A DNA stretch of 64,000 bases, taken from positions 30,282 through 94,281 of the forward strand of contig CAZUFD010000003.1 of the NCBI GenBank assembly GCA_964619625.1, read 5' to 3'. Position numbers and translations under genes: made by a program. Of the stretch, positions 22,711-64,000 are shown piece after piece (positions within the stretch are counted from its first letter, which is position 1; each line of letters opens with the position of its first letter). The notes beneath the pieces were generated by a model. That model made no database searches. It was not told the origin of the DNA and saw only the letters and a list, made by a program, of their open reading frames with translations. Source of the stretch: an uncultured Gammaproteobacteria bacterium (GTDB lineage: Bacteria > Patescibacteriota > Patescibacteriia > Magasanikbacterales > GWA2-37-8).

Positions 22711-25680
22711 TTAAGCTCTAAATTGACAAATATCTCTAAAATCACAGCGTTTGCAAACATGAGGGCTCGGCGTGGCGGTGAAATCCTGCGAATTTATCTG
22801 ATCAATGGCCGTAACAACTTTTTCTTTTAGTTTTTCTATGTCTTTTTCATTTCCTAAAAAGGAAACTTTTAAATTATCGTTGAGATAAAAATACGTGAGA
22901 CGTTCCGGCGCGCCGATGTTTTTATATTCCGGCAGTTCATTCACTGCTATTTGGTAAAGCAATAATTGGTCCTTATCTTCGCTCTCAAGTTTTTCTTTGC
23001 CATTTCCAGTCTTGTAATCTATAATTTCCAGCTGTCCGTTTGGAAGTTGGTCTATCCTGTCAATGCGGCCATTTACCAAATAATTTCCGATTTTTATTTT
23101 AAACCATCCTTCCAGAGAAATTGGAATGGTCCAATTATCCTTTTCGGTATTATAAAAGGTCTGTAGAATTTCTTTGCCCAGTTTATAATATTCCTCTCGT
23201 TGCGCTTTGCTTTTATACCAATCATCAATCCAAGCCGCTTCATAAAAATTTAACAACTCCTGCAAACTTGGCGCTTTTACACCATTGCTTGATGGCTCCA
23301 CTTTTTCCGGCAGAGCAAATAATGATGTTTGTGTAGCCCTATTTAAGTCTTTTAATCGTTCATAAAATTTTTGTAAGGCAGAGTGGATGCTTTGGCCAAA
23401 ACTGAAGCTGGCGTTGCCTTTGGTGGGGATTTTCAAAACATGCGCCAATTTATATTGATACGGACACGTGCGATAGGATTTTATTTGGGAAAAAGAAAAA
23501 ACTTTTGGTAGTTCGTAAATAAATTCGCCCTTTTCATTATTTTTAATGGGGGCCGATAGGCTTAGGCTTTCTTCGTTTCCGCCCGAGGCGGATCGGCCTT
23601 GGGCCGAAAATCCTAATTCAGGCAGAAAACGGGAAATTTTTTTTGTTCTTACGCCGCCATAATCATCGGCGCTGGTTAGATATAATCGTTCTTTGGCTCT
23701 GGTCATGGCCACATAAAACAACCTACGCTCTTCTTGATAATGACCATCGCCGCTTGGCAGCTGTTCTTTAATAAGCGCGGCCGGAATTTCTATCGGTTCG
23801 CCGCGGCGGCGTCCGGGAAACCTGTCTTCTACCAAGTTCACGACAAAAACATATTTAAATTCCAACCCTTTGGATTTATGCACCGTAATGATATTTACCG
23901 AATCGGGAGTTTCGGTTGGTTGATACATGGCGCCTAAATCACCGGATTCCATGATGTAGTTTAAGTGCTCTAAGAAACCCGCGACATGCGCTCCGGGCGT
24001 GGAATTTTCAAAGCCGCTCATATATTCAAAAAATTCTTTCAGCTGGTAAATTTGCCGAATGACTTCCCTGTTTTGATCTACTTCCTCTTTGGCTAAATAT
24101 TCCAGCAGGCCGCTATCCTGAAGAAAATGAAAAAGTACGGTAGTGGGTTTCTCATTTTTGGCATTCTGCATTCCCGCATGGATAACAGTTAATAATTTGT
24201 CTGCGGCGGCGATGCCATTTGGCGACAAACCAAACTCTACCGCTCGTTTTAAGGCTTCATAGAAAGAAATACTTTTCCTTTTCGCGTTAAAAGTTATTTT
24301 TTGAATATCGTGGTCATCTAATTTCCAGATCGGCATCAGCAGCAATCGGAAAATCGCGCTTGATTCCCGATAATTATCCAGCAGTTTAAAAAAATTGAGG
24401 CAGTCCAGCACCAGTGGTTGGCGATACAAGCCTGACGCCGCCAGAAATTCGTATGGTATCCCCGCCTTTTCCAGCGCCGAAATAAATGGTTCGCTATGGT
24501 TATTGGCACGCACCAGGATTGCAAAATCATCCCAGGTCGCTTCTGTATCCGTATCTTTTATTTTTTTTATTTCTTCAATGACCGAATGTACTTCTTGATC
24601 GAGTGTGGCAGCGTGCAGATGGACAACTTTTTCCTTGTTGTATAAGGGATCCTTCGGCGCCAGCTCAGGATGACTAGCGCGGCTAGTCAGTTTTTTATTT
24701 ACTTGCAATTTTATTTCCAGCCTGTCCGGATTATTATTTTGTATTAATTTATACGCGCTATTCAAAATTTCCTGGCGGGAACGATAATTTTCATTAAGTA
24801 CAATCTCTTGGGCTTTGGGAAAATCATCTTTGAACCGTAAAATATTAGACACCGAAGCGCCTCTAAACGCATAGATACTCTGATCATCGTCGCCTACTAC
24901 CGTAAGCTGTGAATTTGAACCCGTAAGAAGCCGTACCAATTGATACTGCGCCCAATTTACATCCTGAAATTCATCCACCAAAATATATTTGAATCTATTT
25001 TGAAGCAGTTTCAAAATTGCCGGACGTTCTTTTAATAATTTAATGGTATAGAAAATAAGATCGGCAAAATCCAGATAATTATTGTCCAAAAGTAGTTGAT
25101 TGTAAACATGATAGGCGTTTGCAAGTTCAGCCAAGCGATTTTTTTCTTCAATTTCCGCGTTGTCCGTATCGGCTTGCAACTCTTGAACATAACGCAAATA
25201 ATCGGCCGGTGTAATTAATTCGTCCTTGCATTTTTGAAAATGAGAAATGAGGGCATGGATATGACTCGTCGGATTTCCAAGCGAACGATAATAATCCAAG
25301 TTAAATGTATCCAAATTTTGCCGTACCAGCAGCCAGGCATCTACTTCGGTAAGCAGCTTAAATTTATTGCTGATACCGATATCTAACCCATATTCCTCTA
25401 AAATTTTCTGACAAAAGGAGTGAAACGTGGAGATTTGCAAATCTACATAACCAATCCCTACCTCCGCGTCCACCCTATCAAACATCTCTGCCGCGGCTTT
25501 TTCGGTAAACGTGAGCGCCAAAATTTCACTGGTCTTGGCCAGCTTATTTTGTAGAATATGCAACATTTTTTGAGTAATTACCGTGGTTTTACCGGTACCT
25601 GCGCCCGCGACAATAATAAGTGGTCCAGATACGTATTCTACCGCCTGTTTCTGCGAAGGGTTTAGTTTATAATTAGCCAT
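22711..25680 (-). CDS. UvrD/PcrA-family helicase fused to C-terminal RecB/Cas4-like Fe-S PD-(D/E)XK nuclease
   Basis: Walker A GAGTGKT; helicase motifs; C-terminal EIIDYKTG nuclease motif with Cys quartet (CPYQY...CKRCDFRDIC). Confidence 0.85.
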   Translation of the reverse strand: MANYKLNPSQKQAVEYVSGPLIIVAGAGTGKTTVITQKMLHILQNKLAKTSEILALTFTEKAAAEMFDRVDAEVGIGYVDLQISTFHSFCQKILEEYGLDIGISNKFKLLTEVDAWLLVRQNLDTFNLDYYRSLGNPTSHIHALISHFQKCKDELITPADYLRYVQELQADTDNAEIEEKNRLAELANAYHVYNQLLLDNNYLDFADLIFYTIKLLKERPAILKLLQNRFKYILVDEFQDVNWAQYQLVRLLTGSNSQLTVVGDDDQSIYAFRGASVSNILRFKDDFPKAQEIVLNENYRSRQEILNSAYKLIQNNNPDRLEIKLQVNKKLTSRASHPELAPKDPLYNKEKVVHLHAATLDQEVHSVIEEIKKIKDTDTEATWDDFAILVRANNHSEPFISALEKAGIPYEFLAASGLYRQPLVLDCLNFFKLLDNYRESSAIFRLLLMPIWKLDDHDIQKITFNAKRKSISFYEALKRAVEFGLSPNGIAAADKLLTVIHAGMQNAKNEKPTTVLFHFLQDSGLLEYLAKEEVDQNREVIRQIYQLKEFFEYMSGFENSTPGAHVAGFLEHLNYIMESGDLGAMYQPTETPDSVNIITVHKSKGLEFKYVFVVNLVEDRFPGRRRGEPIEIPAALIKEQLPSGDGHYQEERRLFYVAMTRAKERLYLTSADDYGGVRTKKISRFLPELGFSAQGRSASGGNEESLSLSAPIKNNEKGEFIYELPKVFSFSQIKSYRTCPYQYKLAHVLKIPTKGNASFSFGQSIHSALQKFYERLKDLNRATQTSLFALPEKVEPSSNGVKAPSLQELLNFYEAAWIDDWYKSKAQREEYYKLGKEILQTFYNTEKDNWTIPISLEGWFKIKIGNYLVNGRIDRIDQLPNGQLEIIDYKTGNGKEKLESEDKDQLLLYQIAVNELPEYKNIGAPERLTYFYLNDNLKVSFLGNEKDIEKLKEKVVTAIDQINSQDFTATPSPHVCKRCDFRDICQFRA

Positions 25681-33959: not shown

Positions 33960-34041
33960 TGCTCGTTATGTAGAAGCGGCACGCAGGGGGTGTGCAACTT
34001 CTCATAATAGACCCTAAACGGCGAAAGGAGCCGTTTTCCCG

Positions 34042-34392
34042 ATGACCGACTACCAGAACCCTGATCCCGAACTTTTTGGTCTGGAGATCGCAGTCCATTT
34101 GGGCTGGCTCGCCGGTACCGAAGCCCCTCCACTAGAAGACGAGGGGGCAGAGATCACGATCAGCGAGTTTTCCGACGCTGATCTGTTCAACTTGGAGGTC
34201 GAACACGCAGTCGACACTGCCGTTGTCGTGCCAGAGCCCGCTGGGCTGAAGGCGGCAACTGCGGAACCGACCAGCGTGGATGATGGTTGGGAGATGGAAA
34301 ACACGGGTGACAGCCAGGAGAATACCCAGGTTGATCGCCCGCGTCACATGATCATTACGGCAGAAGGTCCCCGTCTGGTCCACCACGAGTAG
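34042..34392 (+). CDS. GC-rich highly acidic protein (116 aa, hypothetical)
   Basis: AAAGGAG SD; Asp/Glu/Pro-rich; about 60% GC. Confidence 0.6.
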   Translation: MTDYQNPDPELFGLEIAVHLGWLAGTEAPPLEDEGAEITISEFSDADLFNLEVEHAVDTAVVVPEPAGLKAATAEPTSVDDGWEMENTGDSQENTQVDRPRHMIITAEGPRLVHHE

Positions 34393-34417
34393 TTGGGTGT
34401 GCCGGCGCGAAGCATCT

Positions 34418-34481
34418 GTTCGCCGCCGCACTACCGCTTTCAAGATAAAAAAATTTGTCTTGTAAAGCGGTGGCGGCGAAC
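34418..34481. repeat. 64-nt imperfect inverted repeat (GTTCGCCGCC...ACCGCTTT / AAAGCGGT...GGCGGCGAAC) around an A-rich loop
   Basis: 10 + 8 bp stems with 5-nt bulge; directly after stop of 34042 gene; no T-run. Confidence 0.5.
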
Positions 34482-34508
34482 TTCAAAAAAACAGATATAA
34501 CAAAAAAT

Positions 34509-34530
34509 CCGCACGTGAGCGGGTTTTTTG
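34509..34530 (+). terminator. intrinsic terminator CCGCACGTGAGCGG + GTTTTTTG
   Basis: 4-bp GC stem, 6-nt loop, T6. Confidence 0.6.
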
Positions 34531-34583
34531 TTATATTGACCATTTACTTAAAATATGGTACGAATTATTTAGGAGGGATCAAC

Positions 34584-34700
34584 ATGAATCTTGCCGAGGA
34601 ATTGATTGGATCTGCCCTGGAAATCTTCCTGAACTGGATGGCGATCATGTACCGTATCCGGGAACTCTTCCGGGTTGACCTCTTCCCCTTGTCCTCCTAG
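34584..34700 (+). CDS. candidate 38-aa peptide
   Basis: AGGAGGG SD 6 nt before ATG; MNLAEELIGSALEIFLNWMAIMYRIRELFRVDLFPLSS; TTGACC at 34536. Confidence 0.4.
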   Translation: MNLAEELIGSALEIFLNWMAIMYRIRELFRVDLFPLSS

Positions 34701-34792
34701 TTAGTACCTTGTATCGGGCTTCACGCCCAGTACGTCGTCCTAGAGAGGGCAGCAACCAGCGGTGTCACACACTGTTGTGACGCCGCAACACA

Positions 34793-34825
34793 AAAACAGC
34801 TTTCAACGTAAGGCTGTTTTTGTTT
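34793..34825 (+). terminator. intrinsic terminator (AAACAGC...GCTGTTT + TTGTTTT)
   Basis: 7-bp stem plus T-run. Confidence 0.6.
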
Positions 34826-34882
34826 TCAACAATTGACCCATTTTATATAAGTATGCTAGTTTACATACAAGGAGGTAGTGGT

Positions 34883-35143
34883 ATGAAGAAGGATGCAAAT
34901 TTCTTTGAGAACTTGGTGGATTGGATCAAGGAGTCGCTGCGTACGTTGCAGCTAGACGAGGTGTTGGAAGATCTTGCTTACTGGGTGGGAAAGTTCGTTA
35001 TTGAGGTGAGCAAAGAGCTTACTCCTGAAGGTTTGCAGAAGTTCTTCAGCGGTTTGAGCGGCGGGTATATCAATACGATGGACCTAGACATCGATCTGGA
35101 TGGAGTGCAACCCGATGAACTTCTCTGCAAGAAAAGCAGGTAG
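34883..35143 (+). CDS. GC-moderate small protein (86 aa, hypothetical)
   Basis: AAGGAGG SD; TATAAG -10 at 34845-34850. Confidence 0.55.
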   Translation: MKKDANFFENLVDWIKESLRTLQLDEVLEDLAYWVGKFVIEVSKELTPEGLQKFFSGLSGGYINTMDLDIDLDGVQPDELLCKKSR

Positions 35144-35164
35144 CGCCTCTACTGCGCAAGGTCT

Positions 35165-35205
35165 TCGCCTCGCCCGAAAATTCGGAGCGAGGCAATGTAT
35201 TTTTA
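35165..35205 (+). terminator. intrinsic terminator hairpin (GCCTCGCCCGAA..TTCGGAGCGAGGC) + T-rich tail
   Basis: Long GC stem after stop of 34883 gene. Confidence 0.5.
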
Positions 35206-35251
35206 TAGGAAAAATGGATTACGTTTAATTTTTAAATATTGCTAGCACCCC

Positions 35252-35280
35252 TTGACAAAAGGGGTGTTTTGGTGTATAAT
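35252..35280 (+). promoter_or_regulatory. perfect consensus sigma70 promoter TTGACA-17-TATAAT
   Basis: Exact consensus hexamers with 17-nt spacer; -35 embedded in palindrome CACCCCTTGACAAAAGGGGTG. Confidence 0.7.
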
Positions 35281-35409
35281 GTCGGGTTGCTCTTTTAATA
35301 GACAGTCTTATTTGCCCCGGGGCAAGAATGCGTCAAATTAGCGCTTTCTCGCCCCTCGGCAACCAAGATTTCGCCGAGACAACCATTTTCCGTGAGAGGA
35401 TCGAAACAA

Positions 35410-35820
35410 ATGAAGAACTTCCGCACCCAGTTCACCTCCATCGCCAGCAACCTGATCATCCTGATCATCGCGCTCGCCTTCGTCCTCACGGGCGGGACGA
35501 CCACGGTCAACTCGGCCTACGCCGACGGCTCCGCGATCACCGTCCGCAAGAACGGCAAGAGTTTCCCGCTCACGCAGAAGCACCGCAACGCGATCAGCGA
35601 GATCGAGCACATCATGCGCCGGTCGGGCGACAACCAGAAGCAGCCGACGAAGTTCTTGTACTCCTGCAACCAGGGGAACGAGAAGATCCGGCAGATCGTC
35701 GCCACCTTCCCCGCGGATGAGCAGTTCATCATGTCGGACGAGTGGGACGGCGAGTGCTTCTTCTACATCCCGCCGACCCGGAAGGTCAACAAGACGCCGG
35801 TGATGGTCGCCAAGAAGTAG
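35410..35820 (+). CDS. secreted small protein with signal peptide (136 aa), extreme GC3 codon usage
   Basis: GAGAGGA SD; signal peptide ...LIIALAFVLTGGTTTVNSAYA; about 68% GC with GC3-saturated codons unlike host. Confidence 0.65.
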   Translation: MKNFRTQFTSIASNLIILIIALAFVLTGGTTTVNSAYADGSAITVRKNGKSFPLTQKHRNAISEIEHIMRRSGDNQKQPTKFLYSCNQGNEKIRQIVATFPADEQFIMSDEWDGECFFYIPPTRKVNKTPVMVAKK

Positions 35821-35873
35821 CAACACCCTGGTCGTGTTCGCGCCCCAAGCGCGGCCACGGCCTACGGCCCAAC

Positions 35874-35910
35874 GAACCCCGCACGCAAGTGTCGGGGTTC
35901 AGTATTTTTA
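35874..35910 (+). terminator. intrinsic terminator GAACCCCG...CGGGGTTC + T-run
   Basis: 8-bp GC stem followed by AGTATTTTTA. Confidence 0.65.
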
Positions 35911-36762
35911 AAGAGAAATATTAAATAACTTTTTAGCGTTTTCGGTCGTCGCAGCCTCGGCTTCGGCAAAAGATATTTGTTTTACTTCGGCAATTTTTTT
36001 AATTGTTTCTCGCACCATCGGCGGTTCGCATCTTTGGCCCCTATACGGAATCGGCGCCAAGTATGGCGCATCGGTTTCCACGACAATTTTTTCTAAAGGA
36101 CAATTTTTTACCACTTCAAGCAAATCAAATTGAAGTTGCGGAGAATTTTTCTTTGGCGGAAATGTTATAACACCGGTAAAACCAATATGCAGCCCCAATT
36201 CCAAATACTGCTGGGCAAAATGCCAGTTGCTGGTATAACAATGAACCGTGCCGCGAATTATTTGCTGCCCGTACTGGGCCATAAGCTGCTTTAACAGTTC
36301 TATCATCTCGGCATGCGCTTCGCGTACATGAAGAACCAAAGCCACGTTTAATTCTTGCGCTAATTTATATTGCAAAGCAAACATCTGTTTTTGTTTTTCC
36401 AACACCTCTTCCCTGGTTTTGTTTTCGGGCAATCTGTACAAATCCAAACCGCACTCCCCTACGGCAATCACTTTTTTACTTTGCCCCAAATTTTTATAAT
36501 ACTCATAATCAAACTCTTCTTCGCGCGACAAAAATTTACTTTCCTCTTCGTCAATATGAGTGGAAAACAAATGTATGGGATGAAGTCCGATGCTCGCATA
36601 CGTAAACGGAAACTTTTCAGCCATTTCCACTCCGGCCCGACTGGTATCTTTTTGCGTGCCAACCAAATTTAAAATCATATTCTCCTGGCCGCATTTTTTT
36701 ACGACTGCTTCGGCGTCATTTCTAAAACCATTAAACTGCACATGGCAATGGGTATCAAACAT
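35908..36762 (-). CDS. tatD: TatD-family metal-dependent DNase/hydrolase
   Basis: MFDTHCH N-terminal motif and TIM-barrel His/Asp/Glu residues. Confidence 0.8.
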   Translation of the reverse strand: MFDTHCHVQFNGFRNDAEAVVKKCGQENMILNLVGTQKDTSRAGVEMAEKFPFTYASIGLHPIHLFSTHIDEEESKFLSREEEFDYEYYKNLGQSKKVIAVGECGLDLYRLPENKTREEVLEKQKQMFALQYKLAQELNVALVLHVREAHAEMIELLKQLMAQYGQQIIRGTVHCYTSNWHFAQQYLELGLHIGFTGVITFPPKKNSPQLQFDLLEVVKNCPLEKIVVETDAPYLAPIPYRGQRCEPPMVRETIKKIAEVKQISFAEAEAATTENAKKLFNISL

Positions 36763-38840: not shown

Positions 38841-39041
38841 TTATTTTTGTTCTGGCTTTTTTGGAGTAAAAAACCAATACCAAATTAAGCCGACTAATAC
38901 CCAAGAAATAATAAAAATTGCCATTTCAATCAGCCAGCTCGGTTCATGGCCTGCAAATTCTAAATACCCAAAATACAAAGGCAATGCTATAAATCCCCAC
39001 ATTATACCAAAAATTATTCGGTCATATATATCTAGCATCAT
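38841..39041 (-). CDS. hypothetical small membrane protein (66 aa)
   Basis: Two hydrophobic helices; between metG and rsmI on the same strand. Confidence 0.4.
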   Translation of the reverse strand: MMLDIYDRIIFGIMWGFIALPLYFGYLEFAGHEPSWLIEMAIFIISWVLVGLIWYWFFTPKKPEQK

Positions 39042-39733
39042 ATTGTATTTACCACAATAACAAACTCCCCTCGTTCATCTTGCATTTTTTCTGTTACTTG
39101 TTCAATCGTACCTCTATATATGGTCTCAAATTTTTTAGTTATTTCTCTACAAACCATAACTTGTCTTTTTACATCTAAGACTTCTTTCAACTCAGTCAGG
39201 CATTTTTTGATTCTATGCCCTGATTCGTAAAACACGACGGTAAATTCGCAGGCCGCTATTTCTTTAAAATATTTTTGGCGTTTATTTTTGTGCGGCGGAA
39301 ACCCCATAAACACAAATTTATCCGTGGGAAAGCCGGAAATAGACAAAGCGGCGATGACGGCTGATGGGCCGGGAATCGGTACAACTTCGGCAACTCCCCC
39401 TGCCCCCTCTTGGAAAGAGGAGGATGACACGAGCTGAGCGATTAATAGCCCGCCCGGATCGCTAATGCCAGGCGTACCGGCATCGGTAACTAAGGCTAGA
39501 TTTTTTCCTTCTCCTAGCAAACCAATAATTTCTTTAATTTTTCTTTGTTCCGTATGTTGGTGATAACTTATGAGCGGCTTGGAAATTTGATAATGTTCTA
39601 ACAAATTTTTGCTCACGCGTGTATCTTCACATAGCACAACGTCAACACTTTTAAGTGTTTCTAGGGCGCGGAGCGTAATATCCGCCAAATTACCAATGGG
39701 CGTGGCGACAATATATAGTTTTCCTGGCTGCAT
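39038..39733 (-). CDS. rsmI: 16S rRNA (cytidine1402-2'-O)-methyltransferase RsmI, with in-frame 35-nt repeat insertion
   Basis: LYIVATPIGNLADITLRALETL...VLCEDTR...VPIPGPSAVIAALS; extra SSSSFQEGAGGVAEV segment encoded by the repeat at 39389-39423. Confidence 0.85.
   Translation of the reverse strand: MQPGKLYIVATPIGNLADITLRALETLKSVDVVLCEDTRVSKNLLEHYQISKPLISYHQHTEQRKIKEIIGLLGEGKNLALVTDAGTPGISDPGGLLIAQLVSSSSFQEGAGGVAEVVPIPGPSAVIAALSISGFPTDKFVFMGFPPHKNKRQKYFKEIAACEFTVVFYESGHRIKKCLTELKEVLDVKRQVMVCREITKKFETIYRGTIEQVTEKMQDERGEFVIVVNTI
39389..39423 (+). repeat. 35-nt palindromic mini-repeat copy A (GGCAACTCCCCCTGCCCCCTCTTGGAAAGAGGAGG)
   Basis: Near-identical to 63455-63489 and to reverse complement of 63044-63079; internal hairpin CCTCTT-GGAAAG-AGGAGG. 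Confidence 0.55.
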
Positions 39734-56224: not shown

Positions 56225-56905
56225 ATGTACCTATCCTGGAACGAAAAAACTATAACTGATTTTTCTGATAAAAATATTGAAGCCATATATAATGACGGCT
56301 ATGTTTTTACGCGTCTGGGCAAGGGTATGATGAACCAAACCAGAATTTTACGAATTGATTTAAATCAATTCAAATTATCCTCGGAAAATAAAAGAATTTT
56401 AAAAAAAACAGAAGACTTGAGCTTGTTTGTCGCGCCTATCCCCTACGACAACTATGATTGGGCTATTCATAAAATGGGAAAAGATTTTTATGAACATAAA
56501 TTCGGCGTCAAAACTTTTAGCGCTCAAAAAATAAAAGAGTTGATTACCGATAGAAATAAAAGCAATTTTAATAAGTTGTTTATTTATTATAAAAGCGGAG
56601 AAAATTTGGGATACTGCATATCCTTGGAAACAGCCAGTATTTTGCATTATTGCTACCCTTTTTATAATTTAGAATCAAACTACCCCAATTTGGGTATGGG
56701 CATGATGCTCAAAGCCGTTATGTGGGCCAAAGAAAATAATAAAAAATATATTTATCTGGGCTCAGCTCAGCGCCCCGCCGATACGTATAAATTGCAATTT
56801 TCCGGACTGGAATGGTTTGATGGCAAAAAATGGAGTGAAGACTTAATAAAATTAAAGAAATTACTAACTGTCATTCCCACCGCAAGCGGGAATCCAGACA
56901 ATTAA
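56225..56905 (+). CDS. aminoacyl-tRNA:protein/peptide transferase-like (ATE/Bpt - FemXAB-like GNAT fold)
   Basis: C-terminal ...YIYLGSAQRPADTYKLQFSGLEWFDGKKW resembles ATE_C YK..F...E motif; located in cell-wall gene cluster. Confidence 0.5.
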   Translation: MYLSWNEKTITDFSDKNIEAIYNDGYVFTRLGKGMMNQTRILRIDLNQFKLSSENKRILKKTEDLSLFVAPIPYDNYDWAIHKMGKDFYEHKFGVKTFSAQKIKELITDRNKSNFNKLFIYYKSGENLGYCISLETASILHYCYPFYNLESNYPNLGMGMMLKAVMWAKENNKKYIYLGSAQRPADTYKLQFSGLEWFDGKKWSEDLIKLKKLLTVIPTASGNPDN

Positions 56906-56948
56906 ATTGGGATACTAGATTCCCCCGACCCAGTCGGGGGAATGACAA

Positions 56949-58385
56949 ATGTCGTTTATGCAAAATATTATGAAGATCCATTTTATCGGCATCTGCGGCG
57001 TAGCCATGAGCGCGCTGGCAACCGCCTTTCACCAGATCGGCTGGGAAGTAACCGGCAGTGACGTGGGATTTTTCCCGCCGATTTCGGATTACTTAAAAAA
57101 TAATAATATAAATTTTTATCCGGGCTGGCACGTAGAAAAAATGATGGCTAGCGGCGCGCCGGATATTGTTGTGGTTGGCAACGTGGCCGGTTCCACCAAT
57201 CCGGAATTTATTTATGCCCAGGAACATAATTTGCATTATCTATCGTATCCGGAACTGATTGCCCAATATATTGTCGGAACTAATTCAGTGGTTTGCGCCG
57301 GTACCTATGGCAAAACTTCCAGCGCGGCTTTGCTCGCTTTAATTTTTACAAAAGCTGGTTTAAATCCAAACTATATGTTTGGCGGCTTAAGTTTAAATTT
57401 ACCCGTCAGCGCTAAACTGGCAAAAGAAAAGGCGTTGTGGAGTATTTTGGAAGGAGATGAATATAAAACCGCTCGCTGGGATAACCGGCCAAAATTCGCC
57501 CACTACTTGCCTACTCATTTACTTCTCACCTCTGTTTCTTGGGACCATGCCGATATTTACCCCACGCAAGAATCCTACTTTCAGGCGTTTAGAGATTTAA
57601 TCGCTAGCGTTCCCGCAAATGGTCTTATTGCCGCCTGCAGTGATTCGGCAACCGTAAGAGAAACTATACATAATAACCCAAGCACAACAAAAGTCGTAAC
57701 ATACGGAAAAAATACAGACGCGGATTACGTATATTCTAACCCTATACAAACAAAAAATGGCGCGACATTTAGTATTAAAAATAAAGAAAATCAGTATAGT
57801 ATAACCACTTCCGTGCTAGGCCAGCATATGGCCGAAAATATTTGCGGCGCGTTTGCTATGGCCAAAGAAATTGGTATTAATACAAATATTGTTCTGGAAG
57901 CTATAGCTGAATTTAAAGGTATAAAAAGACGTCTGGAAAAAAGATACGAAGGCAGTATTACCGTATATGATGATCTAGCTCATTCTCCGGCCAAAGCTGC
58001 CGCAACTTTGGCAACCTTGCGGGATATTTTCCCAACGAGCAAAGTTGTGGCTATATTTGAACCCAATACCGGCAATCGCAAATCTGCATCCGCGGCCGGT
58101 TATGCCAACGCTTTTGCAAACGCAAATGAAGTAATCATTCCCATGCTTAGCAAAGTAAAAATAGCCAAAGATGATACGGATCCGCCATTTGACGCGGCAA
58201 CCCTGCAAGGCATTATTTCGCAAACACATCCTAACGCTCTATTTATTCCTGATGACAAACATGTGATTGAAGAAATTAAAAAAACCACTCAGCATGGAGA
58301 CGTTGTGGTCTTTTTGGGGTCGCATGGGTTTAGAGGCATGATTGAAGGTTTAATTACTTCCCTTCATCAACCACTTCGGCCGTAA
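56949..58385 (+). CDS. Mur ligase family protein (Mpl/MurC-like UDP-N-acetylmuramate--peptide ligase)
   Basis: IHFIGICGVAMSALA N-terminus, GTYGKTSS P-loop; hairpin ATTCCCCCGAC-CCA-GTCGGGGGAAT at 56919-56944 overlaps its RBS. Confidence 0.8.
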   Translation: MSFMQNIMKIHFIGICGVAMSALATAFHQIGWEVTGSDVGFFPPISDYLKNNNINFYPGWHVEKMMASGAPDIVVVGNVAGSTNPEFIYAQEHNLHYLSYPELIAQYIVGTNSVVCAGTYGKTSSAALLALIFTKAGLNPNYMFGGLSLNLPVSAKLAKEKALWSILEGDEYKTARWDNRPKFAHYLPTHLLLTSVSWDHADIYPTQESYFQAFRDLIASVPANGLIAACSDSATVRETIHNNPSTTKVVTYGKNTDADYVYSNPIQTKNGATFSIKNKENQYSITTSVLGQHMAENICGAFAMAKEIGINTNIVLEAIAEFKGIKRRLEKRYEGSITVYDDLAHSPAKAAATLATLRDIFPTSKVVAIFEPNTGNRKSASAAGYANAFANANEVIIPMLSKVKIAKDDTDPPFDAATLQGIISQTHPNALFIPDDKHVIEEIKKTTQHGDVVVFLGSHGFRGMIEGLITSLHQPLRP

Positions 58386-61617: not shown

Positions 61618-63009
61618 ATGAACTACCTGAAACATTTTTCCCTCAGCGCGCTTTCAGTAATCGCTTTGCTTGTTTTTATCATTATAAATCCCGGTACCGG
61701 CTTTGACCTTTTGGCTTTTTTACTGATAGTTTTTATTATCCTGCAAAAAATCTTTGGCGAATACTTTATTCTTATTCTTTTGGCAATGCGTCCGGCCCTG
61801 GATTACTGGCGTGATCTGAACCTTTTTTCCTTTAATCTTTTTGATTTTAATATCAACGCCGCTCTTTCAGTCTTTTTGCTTGCTTGGTCTATTATTTTCT
61901 TTCTTAAAAATCACGAGTATTTTGCGGACATTCCATTAAAGGCGCCGTTTCTGGCGCTTATTCTTTGGTGCGGGATTTCAGCTTTTTATACGTATAATCT
62001 ATCCTCCACCATTACCGAAACTATAAAGCTCGCAAATTTATTCGCTCTGTTTGGCATTTGTTATATTATGGCGAAAAAAGACGGTGCTAAATTTAAAGAT
62101 TTTTTCTTAAAATCAGCGATTTTGGCCGCAACCATTCCTATTACGGTCGGCATATATCAATTCATCAGTAAAACCGGCGCGGATATTGATGAATTATCCA
62201 ATAGAATTTATGGTACTTTTGCTCACCCAAACGTGCTTGCCACGTTCGCGCTGGTGTTACTTTTTATAGTCATAAATGAAATTGCATCCAGACATAAAAA
62301 AACAGAAAACATTTTTGATTTTAATAATGATGCTCCCCTAAAAATTTCCGCTCTGTTTTTATCTTTTATAATACTGCTCACCTACACTCGCATCGCCTGG
62401 GTTGGAACGGCAATGTTATTTGCCATAGTGGGCCTCATATATTATCGCAAAATTATTATATACGCTCTTGCCGGTATTGCTTTGTTTTACGCGCTTTTTT
62501 ACCCGGTGAATAATTACTTAATAAATAATCATAATGTTAATTTACAGGCTTCTCATTTTATCTTTAGATTAACTGCCCGCAATCAAGATTCGGACTCCAT
62601 ACGATGGCGCACCAATTTGATAACAAAAGTACTGCCTCTCTTTAAAGAAAAATATTTATACGGCTATGGATACGGCACGTTTGCGCGTGTTTGGGATGAT
62701 AATAAAGATATAGAAAATCTTTGGGATAATACCTCCGAAGCGCACAATGATTATATAAAAGTCGCGTTTGAATCCGGCATTATTGGTTTGGTATTATTTT
62801 TACTGATTTTTGTTTCTTTGCTATACAGACAAATACTGCTGGGCGTAAAAAATCATTGGGCAAACATTGTGTTCATTGCCAGTATTTTTGCGTATTTGGT
62901 TATGAGTATGAGCGATAATATGCTGCACCATACGCCGGTGATTTGGTGGCTTTGGGCCGTGTGGGGTTGGTGGACGGCAGGCACTAAGCCCTTAAATTCT
63001 AGATCCTAA
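61618..63009 (+). CDS. O-antigen ligase/polymerase (Wzy_C)-family membrane protein
   Basis: About 10 TM helices, periplasmic loop WDNTSEAHNDYIKVAFESG. Confidence 0.7.
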   Translation: MNYLKHFSLSALSVIALLVFIIINPGTGFDLLAFLLIVFIILQKIFGEYFILILLAMRPALDYWRDLNLFSFNLFDFNINAALSVFLLAWSIIFFLKNHEYFADIPLKAPFLALILWCGISAFYTYNLSSTITETIKLANLFALFGICYIMAKKDGAKFKDFFLKSAILAATIPITVGIYQFISKTGADIDELSNRIYGTFAHPNVLATFALVLLFIVINEIASRHKKTENIFDFNNDAPLKISALFLSFIILLTYTRIAWVGTAMLFAIVGLIYYRKIIIYALAGIALFYALFYPVNNYLINNHNVNLQASHFIFRLTARNQDSDSIRWRTNLITKVLPLFKEKYLYGYGYGTFARVWDDNKDIENLWDNTSEAHNDYIKVAFESGIIGLVLFLLIFVSLLYRQILLGVKNHWANIVFIASIFAYLVMSMSDNMLHHTPVIWWLWAVWGWWTAGTKPLNSRS

Positions 63010-63043
63010 GATTGAGATGGAAGAAGTTGCCGAAATTTTAGTT

Positions 63044-63079
63044 CCTCCTCTTACCAAGAGGAGGTTAGGAGGAGTTGCC
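63044..63079 (-). repeat. 35-nt palindromic mini-repeat copy B (reverse orientation)
   Basis: Reverse complement GGCAACTCCTCCTAACCTCCTCTTGGTAAGAGGAGG matches copies A and C. Confidence 0.5.
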
Positions 63080-63086
63080 GGTGTCT

Positions 63087-63521
63087 ATGGCTAAAATATT
63101 CAACAGAAAAAAATTTCTCAGCTTCAGATCAGAGCTTCGTAATAAAATGACTAAAAGTGAAATTTTACTCTGAAAATATCTAAAAAATGATCGGGTGGGT
63201 TTTAGATTTAGAAGACAGTACGGGATTGGAAATTATATAGTTGATTTTTACTGCCCTAAGTTAAAACTTGCCATAGAAATAGATGGGTTTACACATGCCG
63301 AAGAGAAAGTATTTATAAAAGATCAAAATAAAGAAGCTTTTTTAAAAAAGAATAATATAATCCTGAAAAGATATAATAGCGCTCAAATATTTAATGACTT
63401 AGATAACGTACTCTTGGATATTGAACATGGTTGTACAGAAATAGCCGAAGCTTCGGCAACTCCCCCTACCCCCTCTTGGAAAGAGGGGGAAACAAAAAAC
63501 CACCCGGAGAGAGTTACCTAA
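63087..63521 (+). pseudogene. DUF559 (Vsr-like endonuclease-fold) gene with in-frame TGA at conserved Trp and mini-repeat-derived 3' end
   Basis: ATG 63087 ...ELRNKMTKSEILL*KYLKNDRVGFRFRRQYGIGNYIVDFYCPKLKLAIEIDGFTH; stop replaces W of conserved LLW motif; C-terminus SATPPTPSWKEGE encoded by repeat copy C. Confidence 0.65.
63455..63489 (+). repeat. 35-nt palindromic mini-repeat copy C
   Basis: GGCAACTCCCCCTACCCCCTCTTGGAAAGAGGGGG; 33/35 identical to copy A. Confidence 0.55.
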
Positions 63522-63774
63522 ATAAGTAATAAATTATTTATTCGGGTAATCGGGTGAAAATTTTGCTAGGCAGATAAATCTGTCTATTTTTATTCATTAT
63601 TTACTAATGAACAGTGTAGATAGATTTTTATTTAATTTTTGTATCTTCTCATTTATTTTTCCACTATTTTTATATAATGGAAAAAATGCATGAGAGGAGA
63701 AGGGCTGCAGCTGCAGACAAAAGTCTCTGCCGCTTCTCCTTGCCTTGAGGGTTTCTCAAGGACTTGCTTGCCAA

Positions 63775-64000
63775 CTAGGGTGGGGTCACCGTGATCCGGA
63801 TACGGGCGATGTGATCTACACCATTGACCGGACAACGGAAAGTGTGATCACCGCTCTCGTTCGGCGAGAAGTTGTTGAATGTACCATTAGACGGATACTG
63901 TCCTCCTTGCTGAGGCATTCCGCCGTTCATGGGACCTCCACTAAGGTCTTGGCTCCTTCCGTCACAATCTGCGGTACCGGGAGATTGCCAATGCAGACTG
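63775..64000 (-). CDS. 3' end of GC-rich ORF continuing beyond window (Gly/Gln/Asn/Pro-rich)
   Basis: Open frame from window edge to TAG at 63775-63777: ...GGPMNGGMPQQGGQYPSNGTFNNFSPNESGDHTFRCPVNGVDHIARIRITVTPP. Confidence 0.3.
   Translation of the reverse strand, partial: SLHWQSPGTADCDGRSQDLSGGPMNGGMPQQGGQYPSNGTFNNFSPNESGDHTFRCPVNGVDHIARIRITVTPP

What the first reader, a model, noticed from the sequence alone, without database searches (positions are those of the whole stretch)
39389..39423. 35-nt palindromic mini-repeat inserted in-frame inside the rsmI coding sequence
GGCAACTCCCCCTGCCCCCTCTTGGAAAGAGGAGG lies within rsmI on the antisense strand. It contributes an extra SSSSFQEGAGGVAEV-type segment to RsmI, in a loop just before the conserved VPIPGPSAVIAAL block, without breaking the frame. 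Two more copies occur 24 kb away (63044-63079 in reverse orientation, 63455-63489). One of those is again inside coding sequence, forming the C-terminus of a DUF559 gene. This behaviour parallels Rickettsia palindromic elements, which also insert in-frame into genes. A comparable element family does not appear to have been characterised for a genome of this type.
Basis: seen in the sequence. Interest (0 to 1): 0.65.

Follow-up and report, generated by a model that had tools for sequence, protein, structure and literature searches.

The report
Hairpin repeat from DUF559 cassette in rsmI
A roughly 40-base hairpin repeat sits in frame in the linker of an rRNA methyltransferase gene of a candidate-phyla-radiation (CPR) bacterium, and the same repeat forms both ends of a small insertable cassette carrying a nuclease gene of unknown function (DUF559), which suggests what that widespread gene family does.

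Summary
The window holds three full copies and one remnant of a tag-plus-hairpin module, GGCAACTCCYCCT-N-CCYCCTCTT-GGWA-AAGAGGRGG, against a chance expectation of about zero.

The rsmI copy is a real lineage-specific insert. 76 of 120 RsmI orthologs, including the closest one, lack any insert there. With its conserved flanks the unit is 42 nt, or 14 codons. It replaces 7 linker residues rather than simply adding to them.

- **DUF559 link.** The module is the terminal repeat of a DUF559 (Vsr-like endonuclease) cassette. The window's DUF559 pseudogene is bracketed by inverted copies. An orthologous locus lacks the whole ~476-nt cassette, and the break falls exactly at the outer end of the right hairpin. 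In 70 other DUF559 loci, such hairpins are 36-fold enriched next to the gene, and 49 of 70 have one on both sides.
- **Insertion hotspot.** The RsmI interdomain linker carries inserts in 44 of 120 orthologs, from at least 8 palindromic families. Only one insert occurs elsewhere in the protein.

The best reading is a REP/RAYT-like system in which a PD-(D/E)XK nuclease takes the place of the tyrosine transposase. The rsmI copy is a non-autonomous solo. That the nuclease actually moves the module is inferred, not shown. I class it as a new variant of a known kind.

The parts
39383..39424 (+). Solo copy of the module: partly conserved ARCYYC flank, GGCAACTCC tag, C-rich half-arm, hairpin and a final A. 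It is 42 nt and is read on the minus strand as SSSFQEGAGGVAEV inside RsmI.
   Evidence: It is 95% identical over 40 nt to 63451-63490 (D10).
39403..39423 (.). Hairpin of the solo copy, CCCCCTCTT-GGA-AAGAGGAGG, with one C.A mismatch in the stem (a G.U pair on the mRNA strand).
39038..39733 (-). rsmI, the 16S rRNA C1402 2'-O-methyltransferase gene that hosts the solo copy in its interdomain linker.
   Evidence: In the AlphaFold model the insert lies between helix 95-103 and strand 116-120, in the block with the lowest pLDDT.
63015..63490 (+). The whole DUF559 cassette, about 476 nt, inserted between the stop codon of the Wzy_C gene and a conserved terminator-like block. It is absent from the orthologous locus L099.
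   Evidence: The right boundary at 63489/63490 coincides with the outer end of the right hairpin. The left boundary is approximate.
63023..63034 (-). Decayed tag-only remnant, TTCGGCAACTTC.
63044..63079 (-). Left-end module in inverted orientation, of the T-type (CCTCC/GGAGG). On the gene strand it reads hairpin-TTA-GGAGGAGTTGCC and places a GGAGGAG Shine-Dalgarno-like sequence 14 nt before the ATG.
63087..63521 (+). DUF559 (Vsr-like PD-(D/E)XK endonuclease) gene, a pseudogene with an in-frame TGA at 63171-63173 where homologs have an invariant Trp. The ORF reads through the right-end module.
   Evidence: PF04480, E=4.3e-24; PDB 3hrl, E=8.6e-15.
63449..63490 (+). Right-end module of the C-type. 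Its hairpin at 63469-63489 has a perfect 9-bp stem.
   Evidence: DNA -10.4 kcal/mol, z=-2.5; RNA -23.8 kcal/mol, z=-3.7.

Best explanation
The sequence in rsmI is a solo, non-autonomous copy of the terminal module of a small selfish cassette. The cassette is a DUF559 (Vsr-like PD-(D/E)XK) endonuclease gene bracketed by inverted copies of the module.

The module has four parts: an unpaired tag (GGCAACTCC), a C-rich half-arm, a 9-bp CCCCCTCTT/AAGAGGGGG hairpin, and a final A.

By analogy with REP/RAYT systems, I infer that the cassette's nuclease recognises the tag-plus-hairpin and promotes its copying. This could happen by strand nicking at the extruded hairpin, or by break repair templated on a resident copy. 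Solo copies resemble the right (3') end of the cassette.

Copies survive only where they do no harm. That means between genes, or in tolerant surface loops. Two properties allow the second: the unit is 42 nt (14 codons), and four (loop GGTA) or five (loop GGAA) of its six frames are open. In RsmI the tolerant place is the interdomain linker, where the module now encodes SSSFQEGAGGVAEV in place of 7 native residues. The rsmI copy is probably old and inert, because its stem carries a mismatch and the local DUF559 gene is a pseudogene.

Shown: repeat family membership, insertion polymorphism at rsmI, insertion polymorphism of the whole cassette with the boundary at the hairpin, a general association of DUF559 with such hairpins, and a compensatory stem change.

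Inferred: that DUF559 is the enzyme acting on the module, and how copies are made.
For: 1. Repeat family. Three copies plus a remnant lie in the window. Twelve more exact-pattern loci occur in about six related genome assemblies (MAGs), one to three per genome, and 22 family copies were collected in all.

2. Insertion at rsmI. The closest orthologs P0003 and P0006 have a 7-aa linker (MGDQVEI, FSKLVEV) where the window has 14 element-encoded codons.

3. Other genes. The same module lies in frame in unrelated genes: L010 RluD-like, L009 TsaD-like, L001, L008 and L007. In RluD the orthologs lack it.

4. Cassette ends. The window's DUF559 gene is flanked by inverted copies, and so are L002, L012, L018 and L019.

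5. Generality across 70 DUF559 loci from metagenomes (27-61% GC):
- The upstream-versus-downstream inverted-repeat score has a median of 17.5, against 8.5 for shuffled flanks (maximum 11.5); 56 of 70 loci exceed every shuffle.
- A locus's own two flanks score higher inverted (17.5) than direct (13.25), and higher than flanks from different loci (9.5).
- The loops of the two flanking hairpins are reverse complements of each other.
- Pyrimidine-arm hairpins occur at 7.70 per kb within 150 nt of the gene, against 0.21 per kb more than 300 nt away. 49 of 70 loci have one on both sides and 66 of 70 on at least one.

6. Empty site. The syntenic locus L099 lacks the cassette. The conserved block AACAAAAAACCACCCGG follows the Wzy stop codon in L099, but follows ...AAGAGGGGGA in the window.

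7. Different contexts. Cassettes of the same family sit next to unrelated genes in different genomes.

8. Co-evolution. Flank similarity tracks DUF559 protein similarity (rho 0.26 and 0.21, against 0.07 for a control region).

9. Stem conservation. One stem pair switches C-G to U-A in 4 of 11 distinct variants, and 98% of cells are paired.

10. Structure. The RsmI insert lies in a low-confidence loop between the two subdomains.
Against: - No biochemical function is known for DUF559, and nothing here shows that the nuclease binds or cuts the hairpin.
- Copy number per genome is low: one to three exact-pattern copies, far below classical REPs.
- I found no target-site duplication and no clean empty-versus-filled junction for the solo. 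At RsmI and RluD the module replaces native codons, which a simple cut-and-paste or copy-in mechanism does not predict.
- In several loci the hairpins face the other way or occur in clusters (L022, L035, L046, L080), so the layout is not uniform.
- My hairpin finder picks palindromes by design, so only the enrichment and inverted-repeat statistics count, not hairpin quality.
- The p-values come from non-independent pairs.
- I did not test for a RAYT or other transposase elsewhere in these genomes.
Confidence: 0.6

Rival explanations
1. The hairpin modules are an independent REP-like family moved by some other activity, such as an unseen transposase or replication and repair errors at palindromes. 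DUF559 is a free-standing homing-type endonuclease gene that targets head-to-head module pairs and inserts between them. On this view the gene is a parasite of the repeats, not their engine.
For: - Gene-less head-to-head pairs exist: L012 1160-1270 reads hairpin-GGGGGAGTTGCC-18 nt-GGCAAACTCCACC-hairpin, and L006 is similar.
- A survey of the PD-(D/E)XK superfamily files DUF559 (PF04480) in one clade with Vsr, listing the structures 1cw0, 3hrl and 3r3p, and gives 'group I intron homing endonuclease' as one known function of that clade (PMC3424549).
- The window's DUF559 is a pseudogene, as decaying homing genes often are.
- Other palindromic families, of the (C)GTC type, spread in the same genomes without any visible DUF559 link.
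Against: - The left module supplies the gene's Shine-Dalgarno sequence at a short, conserved distance, and the ORF runs into the right module. Gene and ends therefore look like one co-adapted unit.
- The ends are locus-specific and track the protein's divergence.
- At the empty site L099 there is no module pair. The whole unit, ends included, is missing, which argues against insertion into a pre-existing pair at that locus.
Confidence: 0.25
2. The hairpins are host regulatory parts of the DUF559 gene: a ribosome-binding switch upstream and an RNA-stabilising or terminating hairpin downstream. The rsmI copy would be an accidental by-product, for example of gene conversion from the DUF559 flank, with no mobility system behind it.
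For: - The upstream copies in the window, L018 and L019 are all of the T-type, which turns the half-arm into GGAGGAG. The stem arms change with it, as expected if the arm, stem and Shine-Dalgarno sequence pair alternately in the mRNA.
- The downstream hairpin is very stable as RNA (-23.8 kcal/mol, z=-3.7).
- The rsmI copy shares the CTTC left flank with the resident right-end copy.
Against: - No T-run follows the hairpins, and the terminator scan does not call them.
- Identical modules occur in frame in at least five unrelated genes and in intergenic places in other genomes.
- The cassette as a whole is an insertion/deletion polymorphism.
- A regulatory role does not explain inverted symmetry that extends to the loops.
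Confidence: 0.1
3. The extra RsmI segment is ordinary lineage-specific linker sequence that was inherited vertically. Its resemblance to the DUF559 flanks is coincidental.
For: Several orthologs (P0004, P0005, P0007-P0010) carry a near-identical segment at the same position, orientation and frame, which could reflect shared descent.
Against: - The match to the DUF559 flank is 38 of 40 nt, and no shuffle reproduces it.
- The same 35-mer lies in unrelated genes of other genomes.
- The three closest RsmI sequences show three different states: this module, an 81-nt (C)GTC-type element, and empty.
- 76 of 120 orthologs have no insert.
Confidence: 0.02

Closest known systems
REP / REPIN elements with their RAYT transposase ('REPtrons')
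   Same: - A short unit of 35-42 nt made of an unpaired tag plus a GC-rich hairpin.
- Singlets and head-to-head pairs both occur.
- A single small enzyme gene is bracketed by inverted copies of the repeat.
- Some copies lie inside genes in flexible loops (Di Nocera 2013, PMC3733652).
   Different: - The flanked gene is a Vsr-like PD-(D/E)XK nuclease (DUF559), not an HUH/Y1 tyrosine transposase.
- The tag is GGCAACTCC (ACCACCCC in related families), not GTAG or CGTC.
- A half-arm direct repeat precedes the hairpin.
- There are only a few copies per genome.
- Many DUF559 paralogs each have their own ends.
Rickettsia palindromic elements (RPE)
   Same: Palindromic repeats that persist in frame inside housekeeping genes, adding a peptide segment in a tolerated surface region.
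   Different: - This unit is 42 nt, which to my recollection (not checked here) is far shorter than RPE-1. According to Di Nocera 2013, RPE-4 and RPE-6 are CGTC-type REPs.
- The host is a different phylum.
- Here the module replaces native linker residues.
- Here a candidate enzyme gene carries the same ends, which to my knowledge has not been reported for RPEs.
Vsr-fold homing endonucleases (the PD-(D/E)XK clade that also holds Vsr, DUF559 and DUF2726)
   Same: The same nuclease clade is known to include a selfish group I intron homing endonuclease (PMC3424549). The DUF559 cassette is likewise a small, self-contained insertable unit.
   Different: The cassette is intergenic, not within an intron or intein, and it carries terminal inverted hairpin repeats that also occur as solos. 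No recognition site has been defined.
MITEs (for example Correia/NEMIS and RUP)
   Same: Short, non-coding, repeated, and sometimes co-transcribed or in frame with genes.
   Different: The solo has no terminal inverted repeats at its two ends, I saw no target-site duplication, and there is no parent IS with a DDE transposase.

Membership tests
REP/REPIN-RAYT system | A short (20-40 nt) imperfect palindrome with a conserved unpaired tag at one end. | tested here: met
   The tag GGCAACTCC plus half-arm precedes a 9-bp stem with a 3-4 nt loop. There are 22 copies, 98% of stem cells are paired, and one pair shows a compensatory change.
REP/REPIN-RAYT system | The tag fits the GTAG or CGTC consensus. 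| tested here: not met
   The tag is GGCAAC(TCC), and related DUF559-linked families use ACCACCCC or similar. The (C)GTC-type units present in the same genomes are a separate family.
REP/REPIN-RAYT system | The associated gene flanked by inverted repeats is a Y1/HUH tyrosine transposase (RAYT). | tested here: not met
   The flanked gene is DUF559 (PF04480, E=4.3e-24), whose nearest solved structure is the endonuclease-like protein 3hrl. I did not test for a RAYT elsewhere in the genome.
REP/REPIN-RAYT system | High copy number, tens to hundreds per genome. | tested here: inconclusive
   The window holds 3 copies plus a remnant in 64 kb. The related genome assemblies have 1-3 exact-pattern copies each. 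Only an exact pattern was scanned, and the source genome is not available in full.
Rickettsia palindromic elements | Sequence homology to the RPE consensus families of Rickettsia. | not tested
   No RPE consensus sequence was available in the tools. Host phylum and unit length differ.
Rickettsia palindromic elements | In-frame presence in functional housekeeping genes, with orthologs lacking the segment. | tested here: met
   RsmI: 76 of 120 orthologs have no insert. RluD: the orthologs lack it. The AlphaFold model keeps the fold, with the insert in a loop.
MITE | Terminal inverted repeats at both ends of the unit and a target-site duplication. | tested here: not met
   The solo has a tag at one end and a hairpin at the other. 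No duplication is present at the rsmI or cassette junctions.
Homing endonuclease gene | Presence/absence polymorphism of the gene at an otherwise conserved site. | tested here: met
   L099 lacks the ~476-nt cassette between the Wzy stop codon and the conserved downstream block.
Homing endonuclease gene | The nuclease cleaves the empty allele of its own insertion site. | not testable with these tools
   This needs biochemistry or genetics.
DUF559 / Vsr-like PD-(D/E)XK nucleases | A significant match to PF04480 with the conserved DF...ExDG..H core. | tested here: met
   One search gives 84.9 bits against a cut-off of 20.6. D53, E64, D66 and H70 are invariant in alignment A1. The window's copy carries a premature TGA at Trp29.

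The most novel reading that the evidence does not exclude
DUF559 is one of the commonest uncharacterised nuclease domains in bacteria. On this reading it is the dedicated enzyme of a third superfamily of REP-like elements, neither GTAG nor CGTC.

The superfamily would consist of small cassettes, a PD-(D/E)XK nuclease gene between inverted tag-plus-hairpin ends, that seed solo hairpins through genomes of many phyla. In streamlined CPR genomes these solos repeatedly remodel the surface loops of core enzymes. One RsmI linker carries such inserts in over a third of orthologs.
Probability: 0.4. Interest if true: 0.8.

Novelty: new variant of a known kind. Interest (0 to 1): 0.66.

Why it matters
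- **A testable function for DUF559.** The family is very large and has no known function. The data suggest that it recognises and processes its own flanking tag-plus-hairpin repeats.
- **REPs without a transposase.** Di Nocera and colleagues noted that CGTC-type REPs lack a dedicated transposase. A nuclease-based system shows that enzymes other than RAYTs may partner such repeats.
- **CPR protein evolution.** Even the very small genomes of CPR bacteria carry active or recently active palindromic repeats. These rewrite loops of essential translation-related enzymes (RsmI, RluD, TsaD).
- **Annotation practice.** This matters for annotating CPR proteins, for alignments and trees built from them, and for reading 'CPR-specific insertions'.
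- **A natural experiment.** The RsmI linker hotspot can be used to ask whether selection or target preference shapes where such repeats survive.

Tried and rejected
- **Known RNA families.** Rfam found nothing in the whole window at gathering thresholds, and nothing in 62900-64000 at E<=1. There are no tRNA or tmRNA genes. The module is therefore not a known RNA.
- **Terminator role.** The scan does not call the module hairpins, and no T-run follows them.
- **MITE reading.** There are no terminal inverted repeats on the solo and no target-site duplication.
- **Defence system.** PADLOC gives only weak partial hits to nuclease domains (DpdF 1.9e-06, mREase_II 3e-05), so I did not pursue this.
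- **Counting insertion events.** A neighbour-joining tree of RsmI was too poorly resolved to count independent insertions. I use it only to show that the three nearest sequences have three different states.
- **Wider context of the window.** Looking up the window's own Wzy protein to read beyond base 64000 failed because it is not on record.
- **Other similar repeats in the window.** A scan for GC-rich islands found no further copy of this module; the two other palindromic repeats it turned up are listed under things noticed in passing.
- **Flank versus protein similarity.** The first version of this correlation included coding bases. I repeated it without them and with a control region.
- **Literature.** Five searches found nothing on DUF559-linked repeats, or on REP- or MITE-like elements in Patescibacteria. 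The library lacks most subscription-journal papers, so this absence is not proof.

Full report
**1. The observation**

The quoted 35-mer is at 39389-39423 on the plus strand. A second copy with 2 mismatches is at 63455-63489. A third, in reverse orientation and one base longer, is at 63044-63079. None of 100 dinucleotide-preserving shuffles gave as many matches for any of the three search patterns. A tag-only remnant, TTCGGCAACTTC, lies at 63023-63034 on the minus strand.

The element has three parts:
- an unpaired tag, GGCAACTCC;
- a C-rich half-arm that repeats the start of the stem;
- a 9-bp hairpin, CCYCCTCTT-GGWA-AAGAGGRGG.

The host ORF 39038..39733 (minus strand, 231 aa) is RsmI (Pfam TP_methylase). 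Its best relatives are named Candidatus Magasanikbacteria or Patescibacteria, so this is a CPR genome.

**2. Whether it is an insertion**

I aligned the 120 best RsmI relatives (64-100% identity). 76 have a short native linker between the helix after the DPG motif and the VPIPGPSA strand. These include the closest ortholog P0003 (84%) and P0006.

At the DNA level, the empty alleles read GTA-AGC-ATG-GGC-GAT-CAA-GTA-GAA-ATT-GTG (L013) and GTA-AGT-TTT-TCT-AAA-CTA-GTA-GAA-GTT-GTA (L014). The window reads GTG-TCA-[TCC TCC TCT TTC CAA GAG GGG GCA GGG GGA GTT GCC GAA GTT]-GTA.

Across 18 distinct copies, six bases to the left of the 35-mer are partly conserved (ARCYYC) and the base to its right is always A. 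The unit is therefore 42 nt, or 14 codons, which explains why the frame is preserved. Four of its six frames are open when the loop is GGTA, and five when it is GGAA.

The net gain in RsmI is only 7 residues. The 14 element-encoded codons replace 7 native ones.

An AlphaFold model (mean pLDDT 87.7) puts the segment in the loop between helix 95-103 and strand 116-120. This is the junction of the two subdomains and the block with the lowest confidence.

**3. A family that moves**

One exact-pattern scan of species-representative genomes gave 12 loci in about six related genome assemblies (MAGs), with one to three per genome. Six of these lie inside long ORFs:
- an RluD-like pseudouridine synthase (L010);
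- a TsaD-like protein (L009);
- a Wzy-like membrane protein (L001);
- three other ORFs (L005, L007, L008).

The same reading frame (SPSYQEGVGGVA) is used in most of them. RluD orthologs lack the segment.

**4. The link to DUF559**

The two other copies in the window are not independent hits. They bracket a DUF559 gene (63087..63521; PF04480, E=4.3e-24; nearest solved structure 3hrl) in inverted orientation. The gene has an in-frame TGA (63171-63173) at an invariant Trp, so it is a pseudogene. DUF559 genes in L002, L012, L018 and L019 show the same layout.

I then fetched 80 DUF559 loci from metagenomes (36-73% identity, 27-61% GC). 70 of them have enough flank on both sides to test.
- The best inverted match between upstream and downstream flanks has a median score of 17.5, against 8.5 for shuffled flanks (maximum 11.5). 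56 of 70 loci exceed every shuffle.
- A locus's own flanks score higher inverted (17.5) than direct (13.25), and higher than flanks from different loci (9.5).
- The loops of the two hairpins are reverse complements of each other.
- Pyrimidine-arm hairpins of the CCCCTCCTT-N4-AAGGAGGGG type occur at 7.70 per kb within 150 nt of the gene, against 0.21 per kb further away. 49 of 70 loci have one on both sides and 66 of 70 on at least one.
- Flank similarity rises with protein similarity (rho 0.26 downstream, 0.21 upstream, 0.07 in a control region).

**5. An empty site for the cassette**

Two loci, L099 and L100, share the window's gene order: a GHL15/FG-GAP gene followed by a Wzy_C gene.

In L099 the conserved block AACAAAAAACCACCCGGGAGAGT... 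follows the Wzy stop codon directly. In the window the same block follows ...AAGAGGGGGA, which is the outer end of the right hairpin, at 63489/63490. No DUF559 sequence is found in L099 or L100.

About 476 nt (63015-63490) are therefore an insertion whose right boundary is the module's end. L100 has a different small palindromic insert at the same spot. Cassettes of the same family in the window, L018, L019 and L002 have unrelated neighbouring genes.

**6. Fine structure**

Among 22 family copies, three positions change together: the half-arm, the 5' stem and the 3' stem are C/C/G in one type and T/T/A in the other.

The stem pair shows a C-G to U-A switch in 4 of 11 distinct variants, and 98% of cells are paired overall. 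This is modest but clean evidence for a conserved stem.

The T-type is found upstream of DUF559 in the window, L018 and L019, where the half-arm reads GGAGGAG a short distance before the ATG. The C-type is found downstream of the gene and in nearly all solos. Solos therefore look like copies of the right end.

The copies flanking DUF559 fold strongly (DNA -8.7 and -10.4 kcal/mol, z -3.3 and -2.5; RNA -23.8 kcal/mol, z -3.7). The rsmI copy has a C.A mismatch and folds no better than shuffled sequence. It appears to be decaying.

**7. The hotspot**

In the RsmI alignment, 44 of 120 orthologs have at least 3 extra residues at this one linker. Only one has an insert at any other internal site. The inserts belong to at least eight families:
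- this family, and relatives that also end in ...GVAE;
- other C-rich/G-rich hairpins (SPLFKEGIEG..., SPLPRGSGEG...);
- (C)GTC-tagged REP-like units (VIPAKAGIQ...RFRGND, IASEAKQSHG...PRND, VIPTVVEGSL...).

The three closest sequences show three different states: P0001 has this module, P0002 has a clean 81-nt (C)GTC-type unit, and P0003 is empty.

RluD has comparable hot loops hit by the same families. Nested and adjacent units also occur (P0076, and TsaD in L009).

I cannot separate two explanations. Either this is the only tolerant loop and selection filters out everything else, or existing palindromes attract new insertions.

**8. Comparison with what is known**

Intragenic REPs of the GTAG and CGTC types are documented in several phyla. 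According to that paper, RPE-4 and RPE-6 are CGTC-type REPs, RAYT genes are flanked by inverted GTAG REPs, and CGTC REPs lack a dedicated transposase (PMC3733652).

A survey of the PD-(D/E)XK superfamily files DUF559 in one clade with Vsr. It lists a group I intron homing endonuclease as one known function of that clade (PMC3424549).

I found no paper linking DUF559 to repeats, and none on REP-like elements in Patescibacteria.

The system here works like a REP/RAYT 'REPtron' but fails two defining features: the tag and the enzyme class. It works like an RPE with respect to in-frame persistence, but it differs in size and host.

**9. Verdict**

The added value is the cassette link and the hotspot.

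The mechanism, in which the DUF559 nuclease acts on its own tag-plus-hairpin ends and solos are non-autonomous offshoots kept only in tolerant places, is my best inference (confidence about 0.6).

The main rival is that DUF559 is a homing-type passenger that targets repeat pairs (about 0.25).

I class this as a new variant of a known kind.

Noticed in passing
window 56869-56946: An inverted pair of (C)GTC-tagged REP-like hairpins (GTCATTCCCACCGCAAGCGGGAATCC ... GATTCCCCCGACCCAGTCGGGGGAATGAC) lies between ORFs 56225..56905 and 56949..58385. The first copy encodes the C-terminus ...TVIPTASGNPDN. It resembles the 81-nt unit in the rsmI linker of P0002 (same GTCAT...ATGAC ends).
   Followed up: partly
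window 23570-23618 (inside ORF 22711..25680, minus strand): A GC-rich double mini-hairpin (CGGCCCAAGGCCG-ATCCGCCTCGGGCGG) encodes FSAQGRSASGGN inside a 989-aa UvrD/AddA-like helicase. It resembles the 'GGPASGG' inserts seen in some RsmI orthologs (P0076, P0120) and may be another intragenic palindromic family.
   Followed up: no
window 63171-63173: The DUF559 gene has an in-frame TGA at a Trp that is invariant in its homologs, so the cassette's nuclease gene is a pseudogene here.
   Followed up: yes
RsmI orthologs P0001-P0120; RluD orthologs P0121-P0240: One RsmI linker carries inserts in 44 of 120 orthologs, from at least 8 palindromic families. RluD has three comparable hot loops, with 44, 15 and 39 of 120 sequences affected. 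Such inserts would distort alignments and trees built from CPR proteins.
   Followed up: partly
L100 4540-4625: At the exact intergenic spot where the window has the DUF559 cassette, L100 has a different small palindromic insert (...GACGCCCCGACTAAGTCGGGATCGTC...). The spot between the Wzy stop codon and its terminator-like hairpin seems to be hit repeatedly.
   Followed up: no
window 34000-36000: This stretch has a GC content of 0.52 against about 0.40 elsewhere, and its ORFs have no obvious function. It may be foreign DNA.
   Followed up: no
L001, L002, L003, L005, L007, L009-L011 (contigs CAYIHE01, CAZHEJ01, CAYHHR01, CAZXML01): These assemblies are titled 'uncultured Gammaproteobacteria', but where checked they look like Patescibacteria: the L010 RluD-like protein (CAYHHR01) has its best relatives there, and the 304,216-nt contig of L007 (CAZXML01) matches in length the one carrying RsmI ortholog P0046. 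The record titles are probably wrong.
   Followed up: partly
L002, about 1.2 kb downstream of the DUF559 cassette: An ORF there looks like a four-helix-bundle protein of the kind encoded in 23S rRNA intervening sequences (recognised by eye, not scanned). From memory, that small multi-copy gene is also often flanked by palindromic repeats. It is a lead for other families that pair a small gene with hairpins.
   Followed up: no
whole window: No tRNA gene, tmRNA gene or Rfam family was found anywhere in the 64 kb.
   Followed up: yes
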